Shown: piece by piece, positions 17,768-63,929 of the stretch
Numbering within the stretch: position 1 is the first letter of the stretch
How the letters are laid out: the number at the start of each line of letters is the position of its first letter
The notes under the pieces: generated by a model
Seen by the model: only the letters and a program-made list of their open reading frames with translations
What the model was told of the DNA's origin: nothing
Database searches by the model: none
Made by a program: the position numbers and the translations under genes
Origin: an uncultured Fibrobacterota bacterium
GTDB lineage: Bacteria; Fibrobacterota; Chitinivibrionia; Chitinivibrionales; FEN-1185
Direction of reading: 5' to 3'
Assembly: GCA_963753345.1 (NCBI GenBank)
Contig: CAVWBU010000031.1
Span: 53,972-117,971 of the forward strand
DNA length: 64,000 nucleotides

Positions 17768-17925
17768 GGGCGTTCCCCTCCCCCTCGACTCCGCTCGGGG
17801 TCGGGTCGGTCTCCCTCCGGGCTCGGCCATTCGGCCTCGTTGCCGCCTGCCACAAGGGCCCTACGGGCCGTGGTCATGCGGCAATTCGCTTTGGCTCACT
17901 CTCCGGTCCACCTAACTCTGGGCAG
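17768..17925 (+). repeat. Structured repeat family A, copy 1
   Basis: GGGCGTTCCCC...GGGTCGG..CCCTCCGG...CCTAACTCTGGGCAG. Confidence 0.85.
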
Positions 17926-17990
17926 AGGAACATTGCCTAATTGTCAATAACTGCTGCGCAAACACAAATGAAGTTGTCTTGTTTTTTCAT

Positions 17991-18229
17991 GCGCCATCAG
18001 CGCCGACCCTGAGGCCATGGCGCTAACCCGCGCGACAGGAGGGAGGGTTATTTGGCCGCTCGTGCTGTTCGAGCCCGGCATCTATTGACGAATGGGTTTG
18101 TCCTGCCGGGTGAGTTCACGAGCGGCCCTTAGGCCCGAAGACAAGCCGGAGCTGGAGGCGCGGCGTTCTTTGCCTACTTTCTGTCGCTGCAGACAGAAAG
18201 TAGGGCGTCGTGCGGGGCCGCAACCCCGC
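17991..18229 (+). repeat. Structured intergenic element D
   Basis: Nested inverted repeats GGCCGCTCGTG/CACGAGCGGCC, CCCGGCA/TGCCGGG, CCTACTTTCTGTC/GACAGAAAGTAGG, GCGGGG/CCCCGC. Confidence 0.7.
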
Positions 18230-18285
18230 TATAAGAAATGTACCCTTGTTCGGTCATTAGTTCGCAGTAAGAAAAAGAGCACGTA

Positions 18286-18930
18286 ATGATTCATGTTCCC
18301 ATTAAGCAACTCTCAAAAAACCACGCCCCCGCCGTTGCCCTGCTCCATCAACAGGGCATTACCACCGGCTTTCTCTCCAGTTTAGGATCTCGGTTCCTAT
18401 CTGCATTATATTGCACCATCGCAAATTCACCCTGGTCAACGGTATTCACGGCCGTGCCGGAAGGCACAGATAAGCCGGTAGGATTTATTGCCGCGAGCAT
18501 CGACACGGGCCGCATGTACCGGGACGTTCTGTTGCGAAGGGGCTTGCGCTTTGCATGGCTGCTTGCGCCACAAATAATTCGGCCGGTTGCGGTAAAAAAC
18601 ATGCTTGAGACGGTTTTATACCCTGTCTTTCATGCAAAGGACGCCGAGCGAAAGGCGGATGTCTTGTCGCAAGCGTCAAGTGCCGGCGGCGTGCGCGCCG
18701 AACTCCTTGCGATTGCGGTTGACAAAGAGTGGCAGGGAAGGGGAGTAGGCAGGCTTCTGGTGAATGAGATGGAGGGGTATTTTAGAGAAAGCGGGGTTGA
18801 ACGGTACAAGGTGGTCACTTCGGCGCAGGACGAGACAGCCAACGCTTTTTACCGGGCGCTGGGGTTTTGCTTGGAAAAAACGTTTGTTCATCACAGGAGA
18901 GAAATGTGCCAATACATAAAGACGGTTTGA
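18286..18930 (+). CDS. GNAT family N-acetyltransferase
   Basis: LLAIAVDKEWQGRGVGRLL acetyl-CoA motif; ANAFYRALGF. Confidence 0.9.
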   Translation: MIHVPIKQLSKNHAPAVALLHQQGITTGFLSSLGSRFLSALYCTIANSPWSTVFTAVPEGTDKPVGFIAASIDTGRMYRDVLLRRGLRFAWLLAPQIIRPVAVKNMLETVLYPVFHAKDAERKADVLSQASSAGGVRAELLAIAVDKEWQGRGVGRLLVNEMEGYFRESGVERYKVVTSAQDETANAFYRALGFCLEKTFVHHRREMCQYIKTV

Positions 18931-19562
18931 CGCTTCTGCAGAGGGCGGCAAAGCGGCTGTTCGACATTGTGTTTGCCGGCCTTGGCATGGTTTTTCTGGC
19001 GCCGGTGCTCTTTGCAATGGCGGTGTATGTCAAATTTACGTCGCCGGGCCCGGTGTTCTTCCGGCAGAAGCGCGTGGGAAGGAACGGGAAGCTGTTTTCT
19101 GTTGTAAAGTTCCGCACCATGTATGTCGGCAGCGAGGCGGGCGGCTTTGTGACCGCGGAATTCGACGACCGCATCACGCCTGCGGGCAGGGTTTTGCGGC
19201 AGTACAAGCTCGACGAGCTCCCGCAGTTGTGGAACGTATTCTTCGGCGTAATGTCCTTTGTGGGCCCGCGGCCGGACGTGCCGGGGTATGCGGACAAACT
19301 TGAAGGCGACGGCAGGAAAATCCTATCGCTCCGTCCCGGCATCACGGGCCCGGCATCGCTTTACTTCCGCGACGAGGAGCAGCAGCTCGCATCAAGCAAG
19401 GACCCGCACCGCTACAACGACACGGTCCTGTGGCCCAAGAAAGTCGAGCTGAACCTGGAATACCTCGAGCACTGGAGTTTGTGGAAGGATATCGGCTATA
19501 TTGTTGTTACGCTGGTTCCGGAGTTTGATTCCATGTTTAATCTTGTCAAGAGGGAAATTTGA
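18906..19562 (+). CDS. Bacterial sugar transferase (monotopic phosphoglycosyl transferase, PglC-like)
   Basis: KRLFDI, FRQKRVG, KFRTM, LDELPQLWNV, SFVGPRP, RPGITG. Confidence 0.92.
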   Translation: MPIHKDGLTLLQRAAKRLFDIVFAGLGMVFLAPVLFAMAVYVKFTSPGPVFFRQKRVGRNGKLFSVVKFRTMYVGSEAGGFVTAEFDDRITPAGRVLRQYKLDELPQLWNVFFGVMSFVGPRPDVPGYADKLEGDGRKILSLRPGITGPASLYFRDEEQQLASSKDPHRYNDTVLWPKKVELNLEYLEHWSLWKDIGYIVVTLVPEFDSMFNLVKREI

Positions 19563-19581
19563 AAAATAATAAAATGAATCT

Positions 19582-19766
19582 GGGCGTTTCCCTCCCCCTC
19601 GACTTCGCTCGGGGTCGGGTCGGCCGTCCTTCCGGTCCACCCCTTCGGGTGCTTCCAAGGGTCGTCGGCCTTCGGCCTCGGGCCGCCACGGCCCTATGGC
19701 CCACAGGGCCGGGTCCGGGCGGCATCCCGCTTGGCGGGACCTCCAGTCCTGCCTAACGCGCAGCAG
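19582..19766 (+). repeat. Structured repeat family A, copy 2
   Basis: GGGCGTTTCCC...GGCCGCCACGGCCCTATGGCCCACAGGGCCGGGTCCGGGCGGCA...CCTAACGCG. Confidence 0.9.
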
Positions 19767-19840
19767 ATGAATTGTATTCGGTCAATTATATTTTCCTGCG
19801 CCAATCGGTGACTAGGCAAATCAATCATGCTTTCCTTTTT

Positions 19841-19896
19841 AACCATTCAACGTATCAACTATTCAACTCTTTCTTTCAACTTCTCAACCTCTCAAC
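19841..19896 (+). repeat. Degenerate octamer array (NNNTCAAC)n
   Basis: cattcaac gtatcaac tattcaac ... ttctcaac ctctcaac. Confidence 0.8.
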
Positions 19897-20031
19897 TGCT
19901 CTTCGTGGGTGCCCCCGCACAGGTGTTTGGTTCAGCAACCGCACCATCAAGGGGGACACCCTGGAGGGGGTAGCGCAGGACACCGCAGGCCAAAGGCCGA
20001 GGAGGCCGGAGCGAGGGGGAAACTTCCCCCC
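19894..20031 (+). repeat. Structured repeat family B (B1 type)
   Basis: GGGTGCCCCC...GGGGGACACCC-TGGAGGGGGTAGCGCAGGAC...GAGGGGGAAACTTCCCCCC. Confidence 0.85.
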
Positions 20032-20071
20032 GTTAAAGCATTTTAACTAATCTTTAATAAAGATCAACATC

Positions 20072-21205
20072 ATGAACCAAACATCGAAGCGCCTCTATCT
20101 TTCCCCTCCCCACATGGGCGGAAAAGAAATCGAATTTGTCAACGACGCCTTTGCGTCAAACTGGATCGCGCCCATAGGGCCGCAGGTCGACGCGTTTGAA
20201 AAGGAGTTCTGCGATGTGACCGGCGCGCGGCACGCGGCCGCGGTGAGCTCGGGCACTGCCGCGCTCCACCTTGCCATGATCCTTGCGGGCGTCAAGACGG
20301 GCGACGAGGTGCTGTGCTCGACGTTTACTTTTGCGGGAAGCGCATTTCCGATAACGTATCTGGGCGCAACGCCGGTGTTTGTCGACGCGGAGGAACAATC
20401 GTGGAACATGGACCCGCAACTTTTGGAGAAGGCTGTTTTGGACAGGAAGAAAAAAGGAAAAAGAGTAAAGGCCGCCATTGTGGTGCATTTGTACGGCCAG
20501 AGCGCGGACCTCGATCCCATTTTGGAAATATGCCGCCGGCATGATATTGCGCTCATCGAAGACGCGGCAGAGTCGCTCGGCGCAACGTATAAGGGGAAAA
20601 GCACGGGAACCATGGGCCGTATCGGCATATTTTCCTTTAACGGCAACAAGATCGTCACCACATCCGGCGGCGGCATGCTCGTATCGCCGGAAAAAGACCT
20701 GGTTGACAAGGCGCGCTTTCTGGCCACGCAGGCGCGCGACAGCGCGCCGCATTACGAGCATTCGCAGGTCGGCTACAATTACCGGCTGAGCAACGTGTGC
20801 GCGGCAATCGGCAGGGGACAGCTCGCTGTTTTACAGAAGAGAATAGAGCGCAAGAGGGAAATCTTCGCTCGCTACCAAAGCAGTCTTGCCCCGATGCCGG
20901 GATTTACGTTCATGCCCGAGGCCGTCTGGGGCGTTTCCAACCGGTGGCTCGCGTGCCTCACCATAGACCAGAAAAAAGCGGGCATCACTTCCGAGGACGC
21001 GAGGCTCACGCTTGAAAAGGAAAACATCGAGAGCCGGCCGTTGTGGAAACCCATGCATTTGCAGCCCGTGTTTGCAAAGGCTCCCGCATATGTCAATGGC
21101 GTGTCGGAGCGGCTGTTTGCGAACGGGCTGTGTTTGCCTTCCGGTACGGCGATGAGTGATGAGGATATTGAGAGAATGATTGCAATTGTAAAGAGTGCGA
21201 AATAA
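20072..21205 (+). CDS. Nucleotide-sugar aminotransferase, PglE/EpsN-like (DegT family)
   Basis: LYLSPPHMGG, SNWIAP, SSGTAALH, IEDAAESLG, SFNGNKIVTTSGGG, ESRPLWKPMHLQP. Confidence 0.93.
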   Translation: MNQTSKRLYLSPPHMGGKEIEFVNDAFASNWIAPIGPQVDAFEKEFCDVTGARHAAAVSSGTAALHLAMILAGVKTGDEVLCSTFTFAGSAFPITYLGATPVFVDAEEQSWNMDPQLLEKAVLDRKKKGKRVKAAIVVHLYGQSADLDPILEICRRHDIALIEDAAESLGATYKGKSTGTMGRIGIFSFNGNKIVTTSGGGMLVSPEKDLVDKARFLATQARDSAPHYEHSQVGYNYRLSNVCAAIGRGQLAVLQKRIERKREIFARYQSSLAPMPGFTFMPEAVWGVSNRWLACLTIDQKKAGITSEDARLTLEKENIESRPLWKPMHLQPVFAKAPAYVNGVSERLFANGLCLPSGTAMSDEDIERMIAIVKSAK

Positions 21206-21253
21206 ATAGATAAAAAATCTGGTGGGGGCACCGCGAAATTAAAGCAGAAATCT

Positions 21254-21412
21254 GGGCGTTTCCCTCGCCTTCGCAGGCGCTCAGGCTCGGGTCGGTTCTC
21301 CTTCCGGTTTCGGCCTTTGGCCTCTGGCCGCCTCGGCCCTATGGCCCACAGGGCCGGGTCCGGGCGGCACCGCGTTCCAACGCGGCCTCCAGTCGCCCCT
21401 AACGCGCGGCAG
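21254..21412 (+). repeat. Structured repeat family A, copy 3
   Basis: Same core; hairpin variant CCGCGTT-CC-AACGCGG. Confidence 0.9.
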
Positions 21413-21822
21413 AAGAAATCTTGCTCAGTTGCATGACAAGTTCGCATCTGACTGGCGCCAATCGGTAATCCGGAGCAAGCACGTCCCTGCCTCTGTCGGC
21501 GTGCGACTGTTTACCTGTTCAAGAAAACTGGGTAGTTTTTTGCCACTAGGCTCTTCTCGGTGCCCCCGCCAACGCGAGGCAACTTTCTTGCAGATCAACT
21601 TTCTGGCAGGCATACCGCACGAGCGGCGTATGGGTGCGGATCAGCCGGCGCCTCCGGATAATGTAATATTCGCAATTGTCTAAGGCAGGCGTTCCTTAAT
21701 TCCTGATTTTACTAATGAGACAACCTCAACTCCCCCCATAGATGCTCTCTTATATTAACCTGTGCAGATTCTATTTTAGACAAGCAGACCCGAATATACA
21801 AATAGAGACCTAAAACATAATT

Positions 21823-23706
21823 ATGAAAGTCCCGTTTCCCAATCTTATCATCCGGTACCGGCTGGTGATCATCATTCTGATGCACGCGGCTTTTGCCGCC
21901 GCGGCATTGCTCATTGCGTTTCTGCTGCGGTTCGATTTCACGCTCGGCTGGAACAAGTACCCGCAGATGTTCTATCATTCCCTTCCCGTCAACATCGCGG
22001 TCTTTCTCATATTTTCCGGCATCTTCAACCTGTATCAGGGCATCTGGCGCTACGTGAGCGTGGACGATCTCGAAGACATCGTGAAGACCTCGGCCGTTTC
22101 GTCGCTTGTCTTCATGTGCGTCATTGTTTTCAGCGAACATTTCCACGGGTATCCGCGCTCGATTTACGTCATGAATTTCGTGCTCTTTATTCTTCTCAAC
22201 GGCGGCACCCGTTTCGCCATCCGTATCTTCCGCGAGACGTTTGTGCCGGAGAGCGAAATTGCGCGCAACGTTCTCATCGTGGGCGCGGGGACCGCGGGCA
22301 ACGAACTTGCCAAGACCCTCAAATCCGCAAAGAACAAGGAATATATCCCGGTGGGCTTCATCGACAAGGACAAATGCACGCACGGCCAGCGCCTGCAGGG
22401 CCTCAAGGTGCTCGGCGACCTTTCGTCCATGAAAAAGCACATCAAGAAATTCCGCGTCCACGAAGTATTCATCGCCATTCCCGAAGCCACGAACAAGCTG
22501 GTCGAGGAAATCATTGAGGCGTCAAAGATCCCCGAATGGGACGTGAAGTTCAAGATCGTGCCTTCCATGCTCGACATCATGAGCGGCAAGTTCCAGCTCA
22601 ACCAGATCCGCGACGTGTCGATCAACGACCTTCTTTCCCGTCCCAACATCACGCTCGACGACACGCATGTGCGCAGGCAGCTGGCGGCCAAGACCGTGCT
22701 GATCACGGGCGCGGGCGGGTCCATCGGCTCGGAACTGTCGTACCAGGTGGCGGCCTACCGGCCCTCGCGGCTCATTCTGCTTGACGCAGGGGAACAGAAC
22801 GCCTACAACGTCGACCAGGACCTCAAGAAGCGCCACCAGGACATCGTGATCCACACCGTGGTGGGCAACATGCTCGACACAGGGTTTATGGACCTTCTTA
22901 TGCGGCGCTACCAGATCGACTGCATCTACCATGCCGCGGCATACAAGCACGTGCACCTGATGGAGTGGAACCCGCTCGCGGCGCTCAAGAACAACGTGCT
23001 CGGCACTGCCATGCTGGCCTCGCTCGCGGAAAAGCACGGGGTGAAGCAGTTCGTGATGATTTCCACCGACAAGGCGGTGAACCCACGGGGCGTCATGGGC
23101 CTGTCCAAGAGGCTTGCGGAGCGCGTGGTGCTGGAGCGCCACAAGTCCGGCACGCTCTTTAATATCGTGCGGTTCGGCAACGTGCTCGGGTCGAGCGGCA
23201 GCGTGATCCCGCTGTTCCAGAAGCAGATCCGCGAGGGCGGGCCGGTCACGGTGACCAGCCCGGAAACGCGGCGCTTTTTCATGTCCATTCCCGAGGCGGT
23301 GCAGCTCGTGCTGCAGGCGTCGACCCTCAACGAATCGAACGCGATCTTCATGCTCGAAATGGGCGAGCCCATAAAGATCGTCGATCTTGCAAAGAACCTT
23401 ATCGAGCTGTCCGGCCTCAAGGTGGGCGAGGACATCGAGATCGTCTTTACGGGCATGAGGCCCGGGGAGAAGATCGAAGAGGAGCTCTTGACGGAGTCGG
23501 AAAACCTGGAGCGCACGCGGTTCGACAAGATCCGGCTCCAGCGCAACGGGAACTTCGACCCGGACCGCATCGAGCGGTTCGTGCACGACCTCAAGTCGAA
23601 CGTGGAGCTCGGCAACGTGAAGGCCGTGTACAACGACATGCGGGAGCTTATCCCGGAAATGGCCGGCCCCTCGTTCGAGGAGATGATGAGGAATATGTTT
23701 GCGTGA
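21823..23706 (+). CDS. Membrane-bound UDP-GlcNAc 4,6-dehydratase (PglF/CapD/WbpM family)
   Basis: N-terminal TMs; LITGAGGSIGSEL, HAAAYKHV, ISTDKAVNP, VRFGNVLGSSGSV. Confidence 0.95.
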   Translation: MKVPFPNLIIRYRLVIIILMHAAFAAAALLIAFLLRFDFTLGWNKYPQMFYHSLPVNIAVFLIFSGIFNLYQGIWRYVSVDDLEDIVKTSAVSSLVFMCVIVFSEHFHGYPRSIYVMNFVLFILLNGGTRFAIRIFRETFVPESEIARNVLIVGAGTAGNELAKTLKSAKNKEYIPVGFIDKDKCTHGQRLQGLKVLGDLSSMKKHIKKFRVHEVFIAIPEATNKLVEEIIEASKIPEWDVKFKIVPSMLDIMSGKFQLNQIRDVSINDLLSRPNITLDDTHVRRQLAAKTVLITGAGGSIGSELSYQVAAYRPSRLILLDAGEQNAYNVDQDLKKRHQDIVIHTVVGNMLDTGFMDLLMRRYQIDCIYHAAAYKHVHLMEWNPLAALKNNVLGTAMLASLAEKHGVKQFVMISTDKAVNPRGVMGLSKRLAERVVLERHKSGTLFNIVRFGNVLGSSGSVIPLFQKQIREGGPVTVTSPETRRFFMSIPEAVQLVLQASTLNESNAIFMLEMGEPIKIVDLAKNLIELSGLKVGEDIEIVFTGMRPGEKIEEELLTESENLERTRFDKIRLQRNGNFDPDRIERFVHDLKSNVELGNVKAVYNDMRELIPEMAGPSFEEMMRNMFA

Positions 23707-23731
23707 GAAAAAGATAATCAAATAGAAAAAA

Positions 23732-23793
23732 GTTGAGAAGTTGAGAGTTTAAGTTGAGAGCCGATGACGAAGCGTCGAGGAGTTGAGAGGTTG
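23732..23793 (-). repeat. Octamer array (GTTGAGAR)n upstream of four-helix-bundle gene
   Basis: gttgagaa gttgagag ... gttgagag ... gtcgagga gttgagag. Confidence 0.85.
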
Positions 23794-23802
23794 CCGGGTC
23801 GC

Positions 23803-25125: not shown

Positions 25126-25129
25126 AATT

Positions 25130-25288
25130 GGGCGTTCCCCTCCCCCTCGACTTCGCTCGGGGTCGGGTCGGTTCTCCTTCCGGTCTCGGCCTCCGGCCTC
25201 GGGCCGCCACGGCCCTATGGCCCAGAGGGCCGGGTCCGGGCGGCATCCCGCTCTGGCGGGACCTCCAGTCGCCCCTAACGTGCGGCAG
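25130..25288 (+). repeat. Structured repeat family A, copy 4
   Basis: Near-identical to copies 2 and 5. Confidence 0.92.
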
Positions 25289-25372
25289 AGGAGTTCTTAT
25301 CAGTCAACTAGCTCTAAATGCGCCACTTCGTATCCAAGGAAACTGATCGCGGTCTTTTAGCTTCTCAACTCC

Positions 25373-28974: not shown

Positions 28975-29005
28975 AATAAATTTGTAAAGAAATAAAACAA
29001 ATCTT

Positions 29006-29226
29006 GGGCGCCCCGCTGCTTCGCAGCGGCGGCCCTCGTTCACGCTTCGCGCCCTGCGGGCCGCCTTCGGCGGTGGTCTCCGCGCCTCCGGCGCTCCGGC
29101 TCCAGGCTCGGGGCGGCACAAGGCAAGAGACACAATAATGAAGCGCAAAGCGCTATTACTATACCTTGGGGAACGAAGTGACAATGCGCTCCAGCGCACC
29201 TTCCAGTCCTGCCTGGCGCGGGGCGG
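29006..29226 (+). repeat. Structured repeat family A, copy 11 (divergent, with insertion)
   Basis: GGGCGCCCCGCTGC-TTC-GCAGCGG ... ATGCGCTCCAGCGCACCTTCCAGTCCTGCCTGGCGCG. Confidence 0.8.
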
Positions 29227-29291
29227 AAGGGGAAACTTAAAGCCCCCCGTGTCTTTGCCCCAAACGGCAACGCCGGGAAATATAGATACAA

Positions 29292-29308: not shown

Positions 29309-29350
29309 TAAATTCAGACTGTTTCGTACGGAATGTGTATGGTTTTTGAT

Positions 29351-29394
29351 TTCTCCCCCTTAGCAAGGGGGAGATGCCGTAGGCAGAGGGGGAT
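29351..29394 (+). repeat. Hairpin module C
   Basis: CTCCCCCTT-AGC-AAGGGGGAG-ATGCC-GTA-GGCAG-AGGGGG. Confidence 0.85.
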
Positions 29395-29410
29395 CTTCCG
29401 CAGTGGTTGC

Positions 29411-29550
29411 GTTGCGAAGGTGCGACGACGCGCGAGCGTCAAGCGAGCGCCTTTGGCGCGCACCTTCGCAGGAGGGGGTAGCGGAGGACACCGCAGGCCG
29501 AAGGCCGAGGAGGCCGGAGCGAGGGGGAAACGCGAAGCGGTGCCCCCACC
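29411..29550 (+). repeat. Structured repeat family B (B2 5' stem with B1 middle)
   Basis: GCGAAGGTGCG...CGCACCTTCGC-AGGAGGGGGTAG...GGGGGAAACGCGAAGCGGTGCCCCCACC. Confidence 0.85.
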
Positions 29551-29624
29551 AAGGCAATGTTTCCCGGCCGCGCCTTTACAAAAGGGGGAACGCCCAATTT
29601 ATTATTTAGAGAAAGAAATTGAAA

Positions 29625-34056: not shown

Positions 34057-34087
34057 ATTGACAAAGTCTTCTTTGCTTAATGATCTT

Positions 34088-34233
34088 GGGCGTTCCCCGG
34101 CCTTTGGCCGGGTCGGTTCTCCTTCCGGTCTCGGCCTCCGGCCTCGGGCCGCCACGGCCCTATGGCCCACAGGGCCGGGTCCGGGCGGCATCCCGCTTTG
34201 GCGGGACCTTCAGTCGCCCCTAACGCGCGGCAG
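34088..34233 (+). repeat. Structured repeat family A, copy 5
   Basis: Core identical to copies 2 and 4; first hairpin CCCGGCC-TTT-GGCCGGG. Confidence 0.92.
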
Positions 34234-34300
34234 AAGAATGCCTATAAGAAGAGCAATTTCTTTTTGCGCCATTTTAAATGCGAGGAATACAGATGGCTGA

Positions 34301-35430: not shown

Positions 35431-35617
35431 TGTAGAGGGCACCCTCTTTTGCTTTGTCTCTTTGTTACTTTGTTTTTTTGTGGCTATTTTCTTGCGGGCA
35501 CCGAGAAAGAGAGTTGAAAGTTGACAGTTGGCAGTTGACAGCGAGGAGATAGATCCTTTTCGATGTGTCCAGAGATTCCAAATGGCGCAAAGATGCTGCT
35601 GGCTGAACGGATTTCCT

Positions 35618-35761
35618 CTGCCGCGCGCCAGGCAGGACTGGAGGCCGCGCCAGAGTGCGGTGCCGCCCGGACCCGGCCCTGTGGGCCATAGGGCCGAGGC
35701 GGCCCGAGGCCGGAGGCCGAGACCGGAAGGACGGCCGCCGACGCGAAGCGGCGGGGCGCCC
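35618..35761 (-). repeat. Structured repeat family A, copy 6
   Basis: Reverse strand GGGCGCCCC...CCTGGCGCGCGGCAG. Confidence 0.9.
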
Positions 35762-35882
35762 AAGCATTTACTTTCTTGACTTGATGAAGGCCGGGGAACG
35801 CCCAAGTATTTTTTATATCGACACAATATATTTTCCAATTACGCGGAAAGATTCCCTTTCCACGGCGCAAAGGACTCCTGTC

Positions 35883-37203: not shown

Positions 37204-37233
37204 TATTCTATAAAAGCAAGAGAATATTAGTGT

Positions 37234-37354
37234 GGGGGAGGTATCCCCCTGCCTGCGGCCCTGTGGTCCTCCGGCACCCCCTCCTGGGTGGCCGCCTTGA
37301 CAAAGCAGCTTCGAGAACCAAACATTGTTGTGGCGGCACCCACGAGCAGCGGTT
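37234..37354 (-). repeat. Structured repeat family B (B1 type, solo)
   Basis: Reverse strand GGGTGCCGCC...GGCGGCCACCC-AGGAGGGGGT...GGGGGATACCTCCCCC. Confidence 0.85.
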
Positions 37355-37413
37355 GCTAAGAAAAATCAGATGACAAATGGCACATTTCTTCCAGGTGAAA
37401 AATAGGAAGGAGT

Positions 37414-38539: not shown

Positions 38540-38608
38540 CGAGATTTTTTCCTTATTTTTGATTGATGAAGAAAGTGCGTAAGTGGTAATATTAATAAGT
38601 GTATACAA

Positions 38609-38746
38609 GGGGGGAGGTATCCCCCTCGCTCCGGCCTCCTCGGCCTGCGGCCTGCGGTGTCCTGCGCTACCCCCTCCTGGGTGGCCGCCTTGATAAAGCA
38701 GCTGCAAGACCATGCATTGTTGTGGCGGCACCCATGGAGAGCAGTT
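38609..38746 (-). repeat. Structured repeat family B (B1 type)
   Basis: Reverse strand matches the 19894 copy with a covarying stem. Confidence 0.88.
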
Positions 38747-38827
38747 TAAAAGTCGTAAGCCAAAGCATTGACTCTAACTTCGAGATTCGGGCTGGCGGAG
38801 AAAATAAATTGACAGAATAGAATCCCT

Positions 38828-38988
38828 CTGCCGCGCGTTAGGTGGACCGTAGTGGTCCCGCCATAGCGGGATTGCCGGCCGACCCCGGCCCGAAGGGCCC
38901 TAGGGGCGGACCGGCAACGAGGCGAATAGCCGAGCCCGGAGGGAGACCGACCCGAGCCTGAGTTGTAACGAGGGCGAGGGGAACGCCC
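38828..38988 (-). repeat. Structured repeat family A, copy 7
   Basis: Reverse strand GGGCGTTCCCC...CCTAACGCGCGGCAG. Confidence 0.88.
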
Positions 38989-39028
38989 AGCTTTTGAATT
39001 TATTGTATTTAGAAGAATTGTAATTAGC

Positions 39029-43838: not shown

Positions 43839-43867
43839 TTCACAATTGATATGACACAAGAAGCGAT

Positions 43868-44027
43868 GGGCGTTCCCCTCGCCTTCGTCAAGTCTCAGGC
43901 TCGGGTCGGCCCTCCCTCCGGTCTCGGCCTTCGGCCTCGGGCCGCCACGGCCCTATGGCCCACAGGGCCGGGTCCGGGCGGCATCGTGCTCCAGCACGAC
44001 CTCTGGTCCGGCCTAACGCGCGGGCAG
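43868..44027 (+). repeat. Structured repeat family A, copy 8
   Basis: Hairpin variant TCGTGCT-CC-AGCACGA. Confidence 0.92.
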
Positions 44028-44085
44028 AAGGTGATAGCCGCAGGCCGGCAAACATCGGATGATTTACGGTACGTTGATTTGAACT

Positions 44086-44128
44086 TTCTCCCCCTTAACA
44101 AGGGGGAGGTGCCGAAGGCGGAGGGGGT
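44086..44128 (+). repeat. Hairpin module C
   Basis: CTCCCCCTT-AAC-AAGGGGGAG-GTGCC-GAA-GGCGG-AGGGGG. Confidence 0.85.
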
Positions 44129-44145
44129 TTCTCCGCAGCGGTTGG

Positions 44146-44310
44146 GTTGCGAAGGTGCGACGCTTCGCGAGCGTCATGCGAGCGAACTCGCGCACACCTT
44201 CGCAGGAAGGGGTGTGCCCCCGGATCGCCGTCGCCGCATTGTATAGAGGTCTGTGGTGAGCGGCGATGGAAGCCGGGGGCCAGGGGAAACCGCGAAGCGG
44301 TGTCCCCACC
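44146..44310 (+). repeat. Structured repeat family B (B2 type)
   Basis: GCGAAGGTG...CACCTTCGC-AGGAAGGGGTGTG...GGGGAAACCGCGAAGCGGTGTCCCCACC. Confidence 0.85.
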
Positions 44311-44381
44311 AGAGCATTTCGTATTTGTGAATTTTCCAGCGAAGCGAGGGAAACGCCCAGCCTTAAACGTTTATTACTCTT

Positions 44382-50141: not shown

Positions 50142-50263
50142 AAATTATAGATGACAGAGGTAATGCGGGCGAGTGATCGGGATATTTGCGTATTTGTCCA
50201 ATATACTCCCTATCCTTGACAATACTATATAAATACTAAAAATTAATTGCAACGAGAAGAGAT

Positions 50264-50441
50264 GGGCGTTTCCCCGGCTAAGTAGAGGCGTACGGCCATG
50301 CGCCTCTACATAGCGGGTCGGCCCTCCTTCCGGTCTCGGCCATTCGGCCTCGGGCCGCCTCGGCCCGATGGCCGCGGTAGCGGCGGGTCCGGGCGGCAAT
50401 CCGCCTCTGGCGCGACCCTCCGGTCCGCCTAACGCGCGGCA
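50264..50441 (+). repeat. Structured repeat family A, copy 9
   Basis: Expanded first hairpin GTAGAGGCG...CGCCTCTAC; ends CCTAACGCGCGGCA. Confidence 0.85.
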
Positions 50442-50551
50442 ACGTGAATATCTTATTAGTCAATGTTATATATTGCGCCAAATGGAATTCTCGGAAATGC
50501 AGAAATTGGTTACTTCTAATTAGGTAAATATGATGAATTGTGAATCTCCGA

Positions 50552-57953: not shown

Positions 57954-57987
57954 CGGAGCAACGCCCGCCCCTGAAGTCGCGGGTGAA

Positions 57988-58032
57988 TTCTCCCCCTTGA
58001 AAAGGGGGAGGTGCCGAAGGCGGAGGGGGATT
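57988..58032 (+). repeat. Hairpin module C
   Basis: CTCCCCCTT-GAA-AAGGGGGAG-GTGCC-GAA-GGCGG-AGGGGG. Confidence 0.85.
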
Positions 58033-58047
58033 CACCTTAGAGAAGGC

Positions 58048-58194
58048 GTTGCGGAAACGTGACGCCCGCAATGCGCAAGCGTTGCGCTTCGCGCACGTTT
58101 CCGCTGGAAGGGGTGTGGGTGCAGATCACCTCCCGCCGTTTTCCGGCGGGAGGAAGCTGCACCCCAGGGGAAACCGCGAAGCGGTTTCCCCACC
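58048..58194 (+). repeat. Structured repeat family B (B2 type)
   Basis: GCGGAAACGTG...CACGTTTCCGC-TGGAAGGGGTGTG...GGGGAAACCGCGAAGCGGTTTCCCCACC. Confidence 0.85.
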
Positions 58195-58326
58195 AGATTT
58201 CTTGGTGTTAGATCTATTTCTTTGATATATTATTGATGGATGGGGGAGTACCAATCATTTTATTCCTTCATTCATTAAACGATTAAAAGAAGCATTGTTG
58301 CCAATTAACAAAAAGGGGGATTGCAC

Positions 58327-61137
58327 ATGACAAGGAAACTGCTTGCTGTAGGCGTCGTGCTCGTAACCGCCGCATGGTGTTTCGCCCAAACCTACACAGG
58401 GGAGGCGAGCAACAGGCTTGACATCAACATGGGCATCACGCCCTGGAAATTCACAAAAGGCGATCCCATAAACGCCCAGACGGTCGGTTTGAGCGACGGC
58501 GGTTGGACGGACGTCGGCATACCGCATTGTGTCAATGAAAGCGAAGCCTACACCAACATGATAAGCGGCGGCGGCAATCAGTACGGCGGCACCATGTGGT
58601 ACCGCAAACACTTCACGCTTGATGCGGCGTATTCGGCGCGCAAGGTGTTCGTCGAGTTCGAAGGCGCGAACACCGGTGCCGCCGTGTACATCAACGGCAC
58701 GTTTATTCCCGGAAACAGTGCGATTAACCCTCTTTGCACGCACGTGAACGGCTTTATTCCCTTCGTTGTCGACGTCACGCCGAATGTGCAATTCGGCGGC
58801 GCCGACAACGTTCTGGCCGTCAAGGTGAACAACAACGGCGGCACGTATGTTGAGGCGATCTCCGGGGCGTTCCGCTTCGGCCAGGCCGACGGCGGACTCG
58901 TCCGCAAGGTGTGGATGCATATCACCGACAAGGTGTATGTGCCGGCCAACGTATACTCTGTTGTCAAGAACTGGGGGACGTGCGTGGGCACGGTCTCCGC
59001 CACGGACGCGTCCGCGACCGTCCGCATAATGACCAACGTGCAGAACGACAACGCGACGGCCCAGACCGTTACGGTCACCACAAAGGTCGTCGACGCGCAG
59101 GACAACGTCGTGTTGACTCAGCAAAGTTCACCTCAGAGCATTGCCGCGAATTCGTCGTATGTGTTCGACCAGTCGGGCACCATCACCAATCCCAAGCTGT
59201 GGTATCCGGCGAACAGCCCGTACGGCACGCCGTACATGCACAAGGTGTATCACATCGTGCAGGTCAACGGCGCGACCGTCGACGTATTCACGTCGCCGCT
59301 CGGCATTTGCAAAGTAACCTGGGACCAGAATTACCCCTATTTCAACGGGCATATGCATTACGTGTGGGGGGCGTCGGGCCGGTACAATTATCCGGCGCTC
59401 GCTTCCGGCGTTCCGGACGAGCTCCTGTGGAAGGATGCCAAGCTCGTCGCGGACTGCGGAGGGAGGGAATGGCGTCCCGGGCATTCCACCTGCACGCCCG
59501 AGTTTGTTGATGCATGCGACGCCTTCGGTGTTCTGGTCGACCAGCCGAGCGGCGACGGTGAGGGCGCGTTCCAGACCGGCAACATCACCCAGAACATCAT
59601 TACCCTTAAAATGGAGTTGCATCGCGACATGATCGTCCGCGACCGCAACCACCCCAGCATTCTCATGTGGGAGGTCACGAATGCCGGCATTGTCGACAGC
59701 CTGTCGCGGAACCTCAAGGCGCTTGCGCATCTATGGGACCCCATCATGCTCCGGGCCCAGTCCGACAGGTCGTATCTCGACGGCTGCAAGGCCGGCATCT
59801 CCGACGTCATCGAGTGTTCTTCGGCCGGCTGCGAAGCCGGGCAGAAATTGAATTCCGCGTGCACGAATTTCCCGGCCTTCGGCGCCGAGGCGTGGGACGC
59901 CGGGCCCGCCCGCGCGTCCAGGTTTGCCTGGGACTACGAACTCCAGTTCGCAGGCTCCTACCTGATAAACTGGAAAAATGCCGTGGCGGCGAAGGCCTTC
60001 GGCCTTGCGCACTGGTATCTGGCAGAGGCGCCGGGCGAGGTCGGTCCGTTCCTCGGAGACACCCGCACGGCGCGATCGTTCGGGTCGTCGATCATGGACG
60101 CGAACCGCCTTCCCAAGCTGCTTTACAAAATCTACGGCGTCGCGTGGATCCCCTTCTCGCAAAGGCCCGGCGTCGTTCTTGCGCACCACTGGAACCGCAG
60201 CGGCACCGTGCGCGTGAACGCATTCAGCAACTGTCCCAAGGTCCGCCTGCTGCTCAACGGGACCAATCTGGGAGATAAAGTACCGCTTGGGCCTTCGGGA
60301 ACCTCGGGAGACGACAGGTCTCAGACGTCGGAGACGCTGCCCTGCGAGTGCTGGTGGGACAACGTGACCTGGGCGTCGGGAACGCTGCTTGCCGAAGGAC
60401 TCGATTCAGCCGGCAACGTGGTGTGTACCGATCAGAAAGTCACCGCAGGCAACCCGGATCATATCGACCTGACCCTCGACCCCAGGCTTGTCAAGCCGGA
60501 CGGGTCGGTGTTCAACATCACGGCCAACGGCACGGACTGCGCGACGCTGCTTGCAAAAGTCGTTGACGCAAGCGACAACCTGTGCCCGACAGCGACCAAC
60601 CCCGTCACGTTTTCGGTGTCCGGCCCCTGCCAGTATCGCGGCGGCACCGATGCATTCGTAACGGACGGCCAGCCGGTCGGTTATCATTCGCCGCTCGATC
60701 CGGAGCTCTCGGCCGAAGGCGGCATGTGTCACATCGCGGTACGGTCGACCTTCACGGCGGGAGCGGTTACGGTAACGGCTGCATCTGCGGGCCTGAAAAG
60801 CGGCACGGCCTCATACACCGTTGTTCCCGTGTCCGCAGGACCCTCTTCTGTGGCCATCCCGGGAGGGGCCGCCGAATTGCGCATCGCTGCGCTGCACGGG
60901 TTCGACATCAACGGAACAACAATAAAGTATTATCTGTTGCGACCCGCTTCGGTTTCGTTTGTCATATTGTCCGCGTCCGGCAGGGTGTTGTACCAACAGA
61001 AACCGACGGCACGGGGCGTCGGTTGGACCGTTGCCAGGATTCCGGGCGGTTCGGCAATGGGCGCGGGCGTGTACTTCGTGCGTCTTGCCGTTGACGGAAA
61101 AGAAAATGCGGCAAAGCGGTTTTTTGTGCTTCGGTAA
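58327..61137 (+). CDS. Secreted GH2-like protein, paralog of 54974-57790
   Basis: Same motif order and length; RDRNHPSILMW; C-terminal GAGVYFVRL. Confidence 0.88.
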   Translation: MTRKLLAVGVVLVTAAWCFAQTYTGEASNRLDINMGITPWKFTKGDPINAQTVGLSDGGWTDVGIPHCVNESEAYTNMISGGGNQYGGTMWYRKHFTLDAAYSARKVFVEFEGANTGAAVYINGTFIPGNSAINPLCTHVNGFIPFVVDVTPNVQFGGADNVLAVKVNNNGGTYVEAISGAFRFGQADGGLVRKVWMHITDKVYVPANVYSVVKNWGTCVGTVSATDASATVRIMTNVQNDNATAQTVTVTTKVVDAQDNVVLTQQSSPQSIAANSSYVFDQSGTITNPKLWYPANSPYGTPYMHKVYHIVQVNGATVDVFTSPLGICKVTWDQNYPYFNGHMHYVWGASGRYNYPALASGVPDELLWKDAKLVADCGGREWRPGHSTCTPEFVDACDAFGVLVDQPSGDGEGAFQTGNITQNIITLKMELHRDMIVRDRNHPSILMWEVTNAGIVDSLSRNLKALAHLWDPIMLRAQSDRSYLDGCKAGISDVIECSSAGCEAGQKLNSACTNFPAFGAEAWDAGPARASRFAWDYELQFAGSYLINWKNAVAAKAFGLAHWYLAEAPGEVGPFLGDTRTARSFGSSIMDANRLPKLLYKIYGVAWIPFSQRPGVVLAHHWNRSGTVRVNAFSNCPKVRLLLNGTNLGDKVPLGPSGTSGDDRSQTSETLPCECWWDNVTWASGTLLAEGLDSAGNVVCTDQKVTAGNPDHIDLTLDPRLVKPDGSVFNITANGTDCATLLAKVVDASDNLCPTATNPVTFSVSGPCQYRGGTDAFVTDGQPVGYHSPLDPELSAEGGMCHIAVRSTFTAGAVTVTAASAGLKSGTASYTVVPVSAGPSSVAIPGGAAELRIAALHGFDINGTTIKYYLLRPASVSFVILSASGRVLYQQKPTARGVGWTVARIPGGSAMGAGVYFVRLAVDGKENAAKRFFVLR

Positions 61138-62672: not shown

Positions 62673-62707
62673 GGTTATGTCCCGTACATGCATTTGGGAA
62701 GGTACTG

Positions 62708-62788
62708 CCGTTCGCCCTAAGCAAAGTCGAAGGGGAACGGCCAGTTCCAGCATAACCGTTCATGCTTCGACAAGCTCAGCACGAACGG
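62708..62788. repeat. Inverted REP-like pair
   Basis: CCGTTCGCCCTAAGCAAAGTCGAAGGG ... TGCTTCGACAAGCTCAGCACGAACGG. Confidence 0.75.
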
Positions 62789-62829
62789 GCTAAGGCAGCT
62801 TGCTTGCAGGACACCATAACAGGAGGAAC

Positions 62830-63720
62830 ATGAAGAAACTGCTTGTTACCGGCGCATCCGGTTTTCTCGGGTACAACGTCTGTCTCGCGGCGCGCGGATC
62901 GTGTGACGTGTTCGGCACCTTTAATTCGCACCCTGTCGCAATTGACAAGGTGAAAACCCTGCGGGTCGATTGCGCCGACCACGACCCGCTTTCCATCGTG
63001 TTCCGCGACATCCGGCCCGACGCGGTGATCCACTGCGCCGCGTACCCGGACCCCAACCTGTGCCAGCAGAATCCGGCCGGGTCGTACCGGAACAATGTGC
63101 AGGCGTCAATCGCGATCGCCTCGCTGTGCAACCAGCAGGGAATCCCCTGCGTGTTCACGTCGAGCGACCTGGTATTCGCGGGCGACAAGCCGCCGTACGA
63201 CGAACAGAGCCCTGTCGGCCCGGTCAACATCTACGGCGAACACAAGGCGGCTGCAGAAAAAGGCATGGCCGAAGCGTATCCGGACGTCACCATCTGCCGC
63301 ATGCCGCTCATGTTCGGCGATGCGCCCGCGCCCGCAAAGAGCATTATCCAGCCCATCATTTCCGCGATTGTCGAAAAGCGCGAACTCAAGCTCTTTACCG
63401 ATGAGTACCGGACGCCCGTGAGCGGTTCCACGGCCGCGCAGGGCCTGCTTCTGGCGCTCGGAATGTCTTCCGGCCTTCTGCACCTTGGCGGAAGGGAAAG
63501 GATTTCCAGATACGACTTCGGACTCCTTGTCGCAAAGGCGCTCGGCAAAGACGCGTCAGCGATCGTTCCCGTTCTGCAGAAAGATCAGACCTTTCCCGCG
63601 CCGCGCGCAAAAGACGTGTCGCTGGTGAGTGAAAAGGCGTTTGATTTAGGATATGATCCGAAGACGCTGGAGGAACAAGTGAGAGAATTGGAATGCGTGA
63701 AGAGCGGCTCGAAGAAGTAG
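62830..63720 (+). CDS. RfbD/RmlD-like SDR (dTDP-4-dehydrorhamnose reductase family)
   Basis: AGGAGG RBS; LVTGASGFLG, HCAA, SSDLVF.G, YGEHK, FTDEYRTP. Confidence 0.88.
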   Translation: MKKLLVTGASGFLGYNVCLAARGSCDVFGTFNSHPVAIDKVKTLRVDCADHDPLSIVFRDIRPDAVIHCAAYPDPNLCQQNPAGSYRNNVQASIAIASLCNQQGIPCVFTSSDLVFAGDKPPYDEQSPVGPVNIYGEHKAAAEKGMAEAYPDVTICRMPLMFGDAPAPAKSIIQPIISAIVEKRELKLFTDEYRTPVSGSTAAQGLLLALGMSSGLLHLGGRERISRYDFGLLVAKALGKDASAIVPVLQKDQTFPAPRAKDVSLVSEKAFDLGYDPKTLEEQVRELECVKSGSKK

Positions 63721-63787
63721 ACAAGAGAGAAGAAAAGAGTTTTTGTAGGGGGAAGTACAGCCTGTCTCAAAACTCAAGAGAAGATCT

Positions 63788-63929
63788 GGGCGCCCCGCCG
63801 AAGACGGCGGCGGTTCTCCTTCCGGGCTCGGCTATTCGCCTCGTTGCCGGACCGCCCGTAGTCCCCTTCGGGGAGGGTCGGCCGGCAATGCGCTCTGGCG
63901 CACCCTTCAGTCCAACCTGGCGCGTGGCA
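63788..63929 (+). repeat. Structured repeat family A, copy 13
   Basis: GGGCGCCCCGCCG-AAGA-CGGCGG...CCTGGCGCGTGGCA. Confidence 0.85.

What the first reader, a model, noticed from the sequence alone, without database searches (positions are those of the whole stretch)
17768..63929. c-GNA-g triloops on one strand suggest the repeats fold as single-stranded DNA
Seen: read on the strand opposite to GGGCG..., family A loops include GGCCC-GTA-GGGCC (copy at 17768), GGCCC-GAA-GGGCC (38828), GCCC-GCA-GGGC (57809, 29006), TCCCC-GAA-GGGGA (63788), GGCC-GGA-GGCC and GC-GAA-GC. B and C show GGCC-GAA/GCA-GGCC, CCGC-GAA-GCGG and GCC-GTA/GAA-GGC on their forward strand. Mostly only the middle base varies. 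Established: GNA triloops closed by C-G are exceptionally stable in DNA, whereas RNAs favour GNRA/UNCG tetraloops. Inference: these are ssDNA structures (HUH-nuclease substrates, replication or priming signals, or RT products). In a cassette, A and B would fold on opposite strands. Caveat: C-TTC-G on the other strand can also be read as part of a UUCG loop.
Basis: partly seen in the sequence, partly recalled or inferred. Interest (0 to 1): 0.8.

Follow-up and report, generated by a model that had tools for sequence, protein, structure and literature searches.

The report
Strand-polar GNA hairpin caps in repeats
A very abundant, folded repeat between the genes of an uncultured bacterium caps its hairpins with three-base G-N-A loops on one strand only; such loops are unusually stable in DNA, which hints at folding as single-stranded DNA but does not prove it.

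Summary
In 436 family-A copies of this genome, the mini-hairpin words GCGNAGC/CCGNAGG occur 785 times on the strand opposite TGGGCG and 29 times on the other. Genes carry 0.94 per kb per strand against 9.99 per kb in A. B and C show the reverse polarity: 201 v 11 and 25 v 4. I found a fourth capped site, CC(C)-GNA/GNNA-GG(G), in 104 of 129 aligned copies. GNA is the majority loop, not the only one: 46 of 61 and 51 of 77 triloops.

The ssDNA reading is neither proven nor refuted.
- **For it:** there are no RNA-type tetraloops; G-T "wobbles" are rare and nearly symmetric (48 v 29 among 3123 cells); orientation is independent of flanking transcription (123 v 143).
- **Against it:** this genome has no Y1 HUH transposase and no reverse transcriptase; the replication-strand bias is weak (180 v 126); folding energies cannot discriminate.

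A-linker-B units are pseudo-palindromic. Each strand reads TNC arm, linker, GNA arm, much as in REPIN/BIME elements. This scan had already found the repeat family on other DNA of this genome; the loop polarity is the new part.

The parts
17765..17933 (+). Family A copy. GNA caps lie on the window's minus strand, including GGCCC-GTA-GGGCC.
   Evidence: cmsearch 136.6 bits; sequence
19579..19774 (+). Family A copy, the first arm of a complete A-linker-B unit
   Evidence: cmsearch 158.7 bits; sequence
19775..19891 (+). Linker of the unit. It holds the conserved GTCAAT and GCGCCAATCGG motifs and a tandem 8-nt ...TCAAC tract.
   Evidence: Sequence; consensus of 171 linkers; repeat family D7
19892..20039 (+). 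Family B copy. Its purine-rich, GNA-type caps lie on the same strand on which A shows TNC.
   Evidence: nhmmer E 1.1e-42; B lies on the 3' side in the same orientation for 218 of 436 A copies
21251..21420 (+). Family A copy, in an intergenic gap that is empty in a same-genus genome
   Evidence: cmsearch 178.7 bits; the gap is 617 nt here against 58 nt in G024
25127..25296 (+). Family A copy
   Evidence: cmsearch 176.9 bits; folds
29003..29234 (+). Family A copy with a large insertion in hairpin H6 (weak match)
   Evidence: cmsearch 40.5 bits; sequence
29345..29600 (+). Family C copy, with GCC-GTA-GGC, GGCC-GAA-GGCC and CGC-GAA-GCG on the plus strand. It ends in an inverted copy of A's 5' terminus.
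   Evidence: Sequence; seed alignment
34085..34241 (+). Family A copy
   Evidence: cmsearch 162.1 bits
35263..35434 (-). Family B copy; with the A copy at 35610-35764 it forms a unit on the minus strand
   Evidence: nhmmer E 2.4e-38; sequence
35610..35764 (-). Family A copy, with a truncated second A 5' end upstream at about 35760-35810
   Evidence: cmsearch 138.2 bits; sequence
37228..37355 (-). Family B copy with no A copy beside it
   Evidence: nhmmer E 1.9e-20
38601..38750 (-). Family B copy, containing GGCC-GCA-GGCC
   Evidence: nhmmer E 1.5e-43; sequence
38820..38991 (-). Family A copy. GGCCC-GAA-GGGCC reads on the window's plus strand.
   Evidence: cmsearch 140.7 bits; sequence
43865..44035 (+). 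Family A copy
   Evidence: cmsearch 167.3 bits; sequence
44080..44370 (+). Family C copy, with GCC-GAA-GGC and CCGC-GAA-GCGG
   Evidence: Sequence; seed alignment
50261..50450 (+). Family A copy
   Evidence: cmsearch 121.3 bits
50543..50725 (-). Family A copy, facing the previous one
   Evidence: cmsearch 89.9 bits
57806..57961 (+). Family A copy of the subfamily whose closing helix reads GCGCC/GGCGC
   Evidence: cmsearch 110.6 bits; sequence
57982..58205 (+). Family C copy
   Evidence: Sequence; seed alignment
63785..63938 (+). Family A copy (TCCCC-GAA-GGGGA on the minus strand)
   Evidence: cmsearch 96.6 bits; repeat family D2

Best explanation
A, B and C are arms of a very abundant, mobile interspersed repeat that resembles BIME/REPIN elements. 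Each arm is a multi-helix domain. Its hairpins are capped with DNA mini-hairpin motifs: c-GNA-g and c-GNNA-g loops, closed by a sheared G-A pair.

In the common unit, A-linker-B, the two arms have opposite polarity. Either DNA strand therefore reads 5'-(TNC-capped arm)-linker-(GNA-capped arm)-3'. This two-fold symmetry, together with strict Watson-Crick stems, suggests the hairpins matter at the DNA level. They would form when the duplex is unwound or extruded: at replication forks, under negative supercoiling, or in the intermediate by which the element spreads. A strand-specific RNA role fits less well.

- **Shown:** the polarity, the enrichment, the covariation, the independence from transcription direction, and presence/absence between species.
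- **Inferred:** that the caps act in DNA rather than RNA, and that arm-to-arm template switching helps keep the stems perfect.
- **Unknown:** the enzyme that moves the element. It is probably not a Y1 HUH transposase or a reverse transcriptase.
For: **Strand polarity.** 785 v 29 in A, 201 v 11 in B and 25 v 4 in C for the 7-mers; 265 v 34 for the 8-mers in A.

**Four capped sites per A copy.** One is the short-stemmed CC(C)-GNA/GNNA-GG(G), present in 104 of 129 copies. Its variants GGA, GAA, GCA and GTA differ only in the middle base.

**DNA versus RNA stability of the cap.** Passages of PMC13037366 give d(GCGAAGC) and d(GCGAAAGC) a Tm of 76.5 C and r(GCGAAAGC) 39.0 C. CC..GG stems are accepted. 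Such motifs occur at ssDNA priming sites of phage G4 and at ssiA. [quoted passage not shown]

**The fold is real.** 92.9% of cells are paired against 81.6% in shuffles. There are 459 double-change cells against 141, and 27 of 37 pairs covary. Slid controls give 37-49% paired.

**Non-Watson-Crick cells do not favour G-T.** 48 G-T, 29 A-C and 173 other among 3123 cells. Isolated mismatches: 50 v 37 in A, 22 v 20 in B.

**Orientation is free with respect to genes.** A's 5' end abuts a gene's 3' end 123 times and a gene's 5' end 143 times, using high-confidence genes.

**Fixed inverse polarity of the arms.** B sits on the 3' side of A in one orientation in 218 of 436 A copies. The A profile hits B only on the opposite strand, 28 of 28 hits, each individually non-significant.

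**Mobility.** The gap at 21205-21823 is 617 nt here and 58 nt in G024. One same-genus genome, G018, has no copy.

**Weak bias in the predicted direction.** The GNA strand of A lies on the G-rich strand, the presumed lagging-strand template, in 180 v 126 copies.
Against: - No direct evidence of single-stranded DNA or of extrusion exists.
- The replication bias (about 59:41) is no larger than the gene-strand bias (443 v 328). It may follow from the mild co-orientation with genes.
- A closing helix around a 7-helix junction is more typical of RNAs than of known ssDNA signals.
- All 4-nt loops at the short-stemmed site (GGAA, GTAA, GAAA, GAGA) also satisfy the RNA GNRA rule.
- Some features read better on the plus strand. 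Positions 1 and 4 of the H7 loop are T-A or T-G there. A weakly supported helix YCGG...CCGG has T-G on the plus strand and A-C on the minus.
- In co-directional gene pairs, 92 v 52 units place A's GNA strand in the mRNA sense.
- Single copies fold no better than shuffles: z -1.2 for DNA on the minus strand and -1.0 for RNA on the plus strand.
- No mobilising enzyme has been identified.
- Gene orientation rests on my own crude gene caller.
Confidence: 0.4

Rival explanations
1. RNA-level element. A-minus and B-plus are structured RNA domains, made either by read-through of flanking genes or from promoters in the AT-rich linker firing outward. The GNA and GGAA caps act as GNRA-like loops with a sheared G-A pair, for RNA stability, tertiary contacts or protein binding.
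For: - The fold is complex: 7 helices, 3 branch points and a closing helix, with strong covariation.
- Unpaired segments on the GNA strand are purine-rich, and that strand has the lower predicted energy in 211 of 296 A copies (RNA parameters) and 156 of 210 B copies.
- The 4-nt caps at the short-stemmed site all fit GNRA.
- Because the unit is pseudo-symmetric, a transcript from either direction ends with a GNA-capped arm just upstream of the next gene.
- In co-directional gene pairs, 92 v 52 units put A-minus in the sense direction.
- One sigma-70-like site in the linker at 19814-19785 points into A-minus.
Against: - No Rfam match, even at E up to 1.
- No UNCG loops, and GNRA only at one site. 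Triloops dominate, and the review reports r(GCGAAAGC) as far less stable than its DNA counterpart.
- G-U is not favoured over other mismatches.
- A's orientation relative to the adjacent gene is near 50:50.
- The 171-linker consensus shows no evident sigma-70-type promoter by eye; only one locus was scanned with the promoter tool.
- The terminator-like scan of 17500-26000 found fewer sites (7) than in shuffles (mean 11.0).
Confidence: 0.3
2. Inherited motif with no single-strand meaning. An ancestral hairpin module (GGCC-GAA-GGCC plus the flanking CCGGAG..GAGG) was duplicated within and between arms. The loop letters persist because of recent common descent, or because a protein reads CGAAG/CTTCG on duplex DNA. 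Polarity then simply follows module orientation.
For: - The hairpin modules of A and B look related, in inverse orientation.
- Copies belong to recently expanded subfamilies, and many are near-identical.
- Mismatches look like neutral decay and are symmetric between strands.
- Non-GNA loops (TGT, AAA) are tolerated in whole subfamilies.
Against: - Loop positions 1 and 3 are less variable than the middle base, and no more variable than several covarying stem pairs (pair entropies up to 1.3-1.7 bits).
- The same G..A rule holds at four separate sites with different stems, and in C.
- It also holds in diverged copies from other families of the order.
- Template switching between inverted-repeat arms is reported to invert spacers (abstract of PMC8604942). 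If that were frequent and neutral it would randomise loop polarity, yet the ratio is 27:1.
Confidence: 0.2
3. The specific form proposed by the first reader: the hairpins are substrates of an HUH (Y1/Y2) nuclease, as in REP/RAYT or IS200/IS605 derivatives, or are products of a reverse transcriptase, as in msDNA.
For: - REP/RAYT and IS200/IS605 are the known precedents for ssDNA hairpin repeats.
- This genome holds one Y2 (IS91-type) gene.
- IS200-like Y1 genes exist in three genomes of the genus.
Against: - PF01797 has 0 matches in this genome, and PF00078 has 0.
- G024 has many A copies but no Y2 gene and only weak Y1 matches. G033 has neither, but is only 73% complete.
- The four Y1 loci looked at (two strong IS200-like in G002, two weaker in G011 and G024) and this genome's Y2 locus gave no A or B hit at E up to 1. 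The one G002 IS200-like locus I read has unrelated end hairpins.
- IS200/IS605 ends fold on one strand, whereas here the two arms have opposite polarity.
- The bias relative to the replication proxy is weak.
Confidence: 0.07

Closest known systems
REP / BIME elements and REPINs of enterobacteria and pseudomonads (features recalled from general knowledge, not from a call)
   Same: - Very abundant and intergenic, and enriched between convergent genes: 28% of units against 15.5% of all gaps.
- Built as mosaics of structured arms in inverse orientation, joined by linkers that carry conserved motifs.
- Orientation is free relative to genes.
   Different: - The arms are 150-190 nt multi-helix domains (7 helices), not 20-40 nt single palindromes.
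- No RAYT gene (Y1 HUH) in this genome.
- The caps are GNA/GNNA mini-hairpins.
- The linker holds a tandem 8-nt TCAAC tract.
DNA mini-hairpins d(GCGNAGC)/d(GCGNNAGC) at single-strand initiation signals (phage G4 origin, ssiA of a broad-host-range plasmid, phage N4 early promoters), as reviewed in PMC13037366 (passages read)
   Same: - The same words (GCGAAGC, CCGAAGG, CCGGAAGG) close short G-C stems on a defined strand.
- They sit inside larger folded regions.
   Different: - Those are single signals on phage or plasmid ssDNA, with known primase or polymerase partners and a strict strand.
- Here there are hundreds of chromosomal copies, opposite polarity in the two arms, and only a 59:41 bias relative to the replication proxy.
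Integron attC sites (features recalled; abstract of PMC5737091 seen in the listing)
   Same: - Recombination sites that act as folded single strands.
- Structure is conserved more than sequence.
- A conserved extrahelical base: here a bulged T (plus strand) or A (minus strand) in helix 4/5.
   Different: - There is no R''/R' pair in attC order. The closing helix is GCGTT/AACGC.
- Copies lie between housekeeping genes on all large contigs, not in one array.
MITEs and other bacterial small repeats such as Correia, ERIC, RUP and bcr1 (recalled)
   Same: - Non-coding and structured.
- Present or absent at the same site in different species.
- Some A-C units end in an inverted copy of A's 5' terminus.
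   Different: - Only 4 facing terminal-repeat pairs lie within 1 kb in the whole genome.
- No target-site duplication could be resolved.
- No parent transposon was found.

Membership tests
REP/RAYT (REPIN) system | A single-copy Y1 HUH transposase (RAYT, PF01797) in the genome, flanked by REPs | tested here: not met
   PF01797 has 0 matches in G000, which is 94% complete. The control search rings in 6 of 14 reference genomes.
REP/RAYT (REPIN) system | Short (about 20-40 nt) imperfect palindromes, often as inverted doublets | tested here: not met
   The arms are 150-190 nt with 7 helices. The inverse arrangement of the two arms is met.
IS200/IS605-derived palindrome elements | A Y1 transposase (and often TnpB) in the genome; both end hairpins on the same active strand; strong lagging-strand bias | tested here: not met
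   PF01797 0 and PF07282 0. The arms have opposite polarity. The bias is 180 v 126. The IS200-like loci in G002 lack A or B sequence.
IS91-type rolling-circle elements | A Y2 HUH transposase that co-occurs with, and is bounded by, the repeat | tested here: not met
   G000 has one Y2 gene with no A or B hit in its locus (L056); the nearest A hit lies about 6 kb away. G024 has many A copies and no Y2 gene.
Retron msDNA / reverse-transcribed ssDNA | A reverse transcriptase gene (PF00078) | tested here: not met
   0 matches in G000.
Integron attC | R'' (RYYYAAC) and R' (GTTRRRY) pairing at the two ends, in arrays next to an integron integrase | tested here: not met
   The ends pair as GCGTT/AACGC in the opposite order. 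Copies are dispersed over 49 contigs. Eight tyrosine recombinases exist, but I did not examine them for the integron-specific insertion.
MITE | Terminal inverted repeats and target-site duplications | tested here: inconclusive
   The terminal motif and its inverse face each other within 1 kb only 4 times. The one filled/empty comparison did not resolve boundaries.
DNA mini-hairpin motif | GCGNAGC, CCGNAGG, GCGNNAGC or CCGNNAGG on a defined strand | tested here: met
   785 v 29 and 265 v 34 in A; 201 v 11 in B. The motif definition comes from PMC13037366.
DNA mini-hairpin motif | Actual formation of the hairpin in DNA, with high Tm and nuclease resistance | not testable with these tools
   ViennaRNA parameter sets carry no GNA bonus.
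Any Rfam RNA family | A match to a curated covariance model | tested here: not met
   0 matches at gathering score over the whole window, and 0 at E up to 1 over 17500-26000.

The most novel reading that the evidence does not exclude
These units are a new kind of chromosomal element that folds as single-stranded DNA into a complex, covariation-supported multi-helix domain. DNA-specific mini-hairpin caps nail it shut, and the two-fold arrangement means that whichever strand is exposed presents one capped arm. Such a fold could exclude SSB and recruit a primase, a topoisomerase or an unknown non-HUH recombinase. Its perfect stems would be renewed by template switching between arms. If so, it would be the first elaborate ssDNA 'fold family' dispersed through a bacterial chromosome.
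Probability: 0.22. Interest if true: 0.85.

Novelty: new variant of a known kind. Interest (0 to 1): 0.6.

Why it matters
Interspersed bacterial repeats are usually simple palindromes. Whether they act as DNA or as RNA is a long-running question even for REP elements.

Here a family covering roughly 3% of a genome (A plus B) combines three things:
- a large covarying fold;
- a cap motif whose exceptional stability is specific to DNA;
- a clean strand polarity.

That gives a sharp, testable handle. DNA and RNA oligonucleotides can be melted, cloned units can be probed on supercoiled or single-stranded DNA, and strand-specific transcripts can be sought.

If the DNA reading holds, complex ssDNA folds would no longer be confined to phage and plasmid origins. 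If the RNA reading holds, GNA triloops would become a recurrent RNA cap in a new, very abundant RNA family.

Tried and rejected
- **Expression data.** No RNA holder was listed for window:17000-26500, so no reads could be laid. This is no evidence either way.
- **DNA versus RNA folding energies.** Both ViennaRNA parameter sets give identical energies to GAA- and TTC-capped hairpins and do not fold the 7-8-mers at all. The minus strand of A is slightly more stable in both sets, in 211 and 226 of 296 copies, so the comparison cannot separate DNA from RNA.
- **Single-copy z-scores.** They are weak, at -1.2 and -1.0.
- **RNAalifold on an HMM-based alignment.** It failed to recover the fold. I replaced it with a covariance-model alignment.
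- **First wobble script.** It timed out and was re-run with a longer limit.
- **UUCG reading of C-TTC-G.** Rejected: it always loses a stem pair, and the MFE keeps the triloop. The many CCTNCGGG words on A-plus (278) are the mirror of CCC-GNA-GGG.
- **Helix-5 'G-U pairs'.** The 121 G-T cells in the model alignment are better read as a conserved one-base bulge, which is unambiguous in the copy at 38820-38991. I left helices 2 and 5 out of the pooled wobble count, and say so.
- **Classical MITE with terminal inverted repeats.** Only 4 facing pairs lie within 1 kb.
- **Link to IS200-like or IS91-like loci.** No A or B hit was found at the five HUH loci searched: four Y1 matches in G002, G011 and G024, and this genome's Y2 locus.
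- **Phage origin.** A 23-specified-base pattern from A's 3' end had 0 hits in viral contigs.
- **Promoter in the linker.** One sigma-70-like site at one locus, but none evident by eye in the 171-linker consensus. Promoter rules for this phylum are unknown to me.
- **Filled/empty alignment.** It showed a roughly 560-nt insertion but no clean boundaries.
- **Literature.** Among the 15 listed of 44 papers naming Chitinivibrio/Chitinivibrionia/Chitinivibrionales, no title or abstract start concerned repeats. The phrase 'GNA triloop' occurs in 2 held papers, both about DNA. Supplementary files were not consulted.

Full report
**What is there**

The window is G000:C31:53972-117971, from a 4.52-Mb, 55.9% G+C draft genome of 55 contigs. 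From about 17.7 kb onward, many gaps between genes are filled by G+C-rich repeats.

Family A begins TGGGCGTT and ends ..CCTAACGCGCGGCA.
- A four-seed profile finds 12 copies in the window.
- After one iteration it finds 436 hits in the genome, 226 on one strand and 210 on the other.
- A covariance model built from ten window copies finds 129 copies in 464 kb (the window plus 20 fetched stretches), 13 of them in the window.

No Rfam family matches, either at gathering score over the whole window or at E up to 1 over 17500-26000.

Earlier notes of this scan had already described the family on other pieces of this genome. They called it a new structured repeat of an uncultured Chitinivibrionales bacterium. 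I did not verify that taxon label.

**The fold is real**

On the 129-copy alignment:
- 92.9% of 4546 cells form standard pairs, against 81.6% in shuffles.
- 459 cells show changes on both sides, against 141.
- 27 of 37 pairs covary.
- Sliding the partners gives 37-49% paired.

A closing helix, GCGTT/AACGC, switches to GCGCC/GGCGC in about 37 copies. Because this alignment was fitted to the model, it leans toward the model's structure. Thermodynamics alone is unimpressive: one copy folds at z -1.2 as DNA on the minus strand and z -1.0 as RNA on the plus strand.

**The observation**

Every quoted example is present.

In the model alignment, reading the plus strand:
- H3 has C-TTC-G 34 times, TCC 8, TTT 5, TAC 2 and TGC 2, plus 4-5-nt loops ending in TTC.
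- H6 has TGC 25, TTC 24, ACA 16, GGTA 7, AGA 3 and GCA 3.

On the minus strand this gives GNA in 46 of 61 C-G-closed triloops of H3 and 51 of 77 of H6. The middle base has the highest entropy, 1.23 and 1.65 bits, against 0.8-1.13 bits at the outer positions.

Genome-wide, for perfect hairpins with a stem of at least 4 bp and a C-G-closed triloop, the GNA class makes up:
- 390 of 709 in A
- 60 of 119 in B
- 731 of 5919 in predicted genes
- 236 of 1236 in other intergenic DNA

The published mini-hairpin words make the polarity plain:
- GCGNAGC/CCGNAGG: 785 on A-minus v 29 on A-plus; 201 on B-plus v 11 on B-minus; 25 v 4 in 12 full C copies.
- GCGNNAGC/CCGNNAGG: 265 v 34 in A.
- Genes: 0.94 per kb per strand.
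- A loop-reversed control word: 114 v 89.

The nearly invariant CCTTCCGG / CCCTCCGGG segment reads CC-GGAA-GG or CCC-GNA-GGG on the minus strand in 104 of 129 copies. Its variants GGA, GAA, GCA and GTA again differ only in the middle base.

The pattern persists in 29 copies from seven other genomes. GNA accounts for 12 of 25 H3 loops and 12 of 21 H6 loops that could be read.

Exceptions matter:
- H7 carries a tetraloop that fits no stable class.
- One subfamily has TGT in H6.
- B's commonest loop is NACY.

**The UUCG caveat**

C-TTC-G cannot be re-read as c(UUCG)g without losing a stem pair. RNA folding with the special-loop bonuses still returned triloops. The 278 CCTNCGGG words on A-plus are simply the mirror of CCC-GNA-GGG.

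**Architecture**

In 218 of 436 A copies, a B copy lies on the 3' side in one fixed orientation, a median 90 nt away. The linker holds conserved GTCAAT and GCGCCAATCGG motifs and 2-8 tandem 8-nt ..TCAAC units.

The A profile touches B only on the opposite strand, in 28 of 28 weak hits, at the H3 module. The two arms are therefore inverse in polarity. Each DNA strand reads 5'-TNC arm-linker-GNA arm-3'.

Terminal inverted repeats of the MITE kind are rare: 4 facing pairs within 1 kb.

**Tests that bear on RNA versus DNA**

1. *Wobble.* In helices 1, 3, 4, 6 and 7 there are 2873 Watson-Crick cells, 48 G-T, 29 A-C and 173 other. I left helices 2 and 5 out of the pool. Their many 'G-T' cells sit at a conserved bulge and in a poorly supported helix. 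If real, they would favour the plus strand. Isolated mismatches in no-GU folds give 50 v 37 in A and 22 v 20 in B. G-U is therefore neither common nor clearly one-sided.
2. *Transcription.* I wrote my own codon-usage gene caller (3083 genes, 77% coding). With it, A's 5' end abuts a gene's 3' end 123 times and a gene's 5' end 143 times among 266 copies with high-confidence neighbours. Co-directional gene pairs show a mild bias, 92 v 52.
3. *Replication.* With gene-only GC skew as a proxy, A's GNA strand lies on the G-rich strand in 180 v 126 copies. Genes are co-oriented with that strand 443 v 328 (a cruder version).
4. *Energies.* They are uninformative.
5. *Expression.* No RNA run was listed.

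**Enzymes**

In this genome:
- Y1 HUH: 0
- Reverse transcriptase: 0
- TnpB: 0
- IS110-type: 1
- Y2 (IS91-type): 1
- Tyrosine recombinases: 8

Across six genomes of the genus, Y1 is present in 3 and Y2 in 3. Neither pattern matches that of the repeats, which occur in 5 of 6 and not in G018. The five HUH loci searched — four Y1 matches in G002, G011 and G024, and this genome's Y2 locus — carry no A or B sequence.

**Mobility and range**

The gap at 21205-21823 is 617 nt here and 58 nt in G024. Boundaries could not be fixed. In a sample of the order, 8 of 61 genomes including this one have matches.

**Established background checked**

- Passages of the review PMC13037366 give d(GCGAAGC) and d(GCGAAAGC) a Tm of 76.5 C and r(GCGAAAGC) 39.0 C. 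They accept CC..GG stems and place such motifs at ssDNA priming sites.
- Abstracts of PMC8794818 and PMC8604942 report that template switching can create and maintain hairpin stems and homogenise inverted-repeat arms, with spacer inversion.

I use the last point only as an inference. It could explain perfect stems without wobble intermediates, and it makes the 27:1 loop polarity harder to see as neutral.

**Verdict**

The inference that one strand's loops are constrained is sound. Whether they act in DNA remains open.

I favour a DNA-level role (0.4) over an RNA role (0.3), inheritance without single-strand meaning (0.2), and the HUH/RT version (0.07).

Noticed in passing
window 1-10750: This stretch is 39-42% G+C, against 55-64% in the rest of the window. 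It encodes a polysaccharide-type cluster: an FkbM methyltransferase, GT11, an NAD epimerase/dehydratase, a DegT aminotransferase and GT2, with a GT4 gene just beyond at 11098-12219. No A, B or C copy lies in it; the first A copy is at 17765. It may have been acquired horizontally.
   Followed up: partly
window 54974-57790 and 58321-61137: Two tandem 938-aa glycoside hydrolase family 2 paralogues, about 71% identical over the DNA repeats D8/D13/D18. An A-C unit separates them.
   Followed up: partly
window 19830-19895, 24224-24276, 25346-25406, 34300-34433; 171 linkers genome-wide: Tandem 8-nt units ending in TCAAC (2-8 per linker), always between A and B and on one strand. They look like iterons, and their binding partner is unknown.
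   Followed up: partly
family A helix 4/5, e.g. window 38871-38935: A conserved single extrahelical base (T on the plus strand, A on the minus) sits between helices 4 and 5 in all subfamilies. The model alignment mis-scored it as G-U pairs.
   Followed up: partly
G018 (same genus, 99% complete): This genome has no match to the A model, while four other genomes of the genus each have at least 47 (the scoring cap). It is a natural control for comparative searches.
   Followed up: no
window 21206-21250: Left of the A copy at 21251 lies a short fragment that resembles the inverted 3' end of a C-type arm. This suggests nested or truncated insertions within one gap.
   Followed up: no
G000:C26:285763-286341 and G000:C16:260558-260989: Single IS91-type (Y2) and IS110-type transposase genes in this genome. 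The Y2 locus has no A or B hit; the IS110-type locus was searched with the A and B profiles too and gave no hit.
   Followed up: partly
window 35760-35810 (minus strand): A truncated A 5' end (TGGGCGTTCCCCGGCCTTCATC...) lies directly upstream of a complete A copy. This looks like a tandem or aborted insertion.
   Followed up: no
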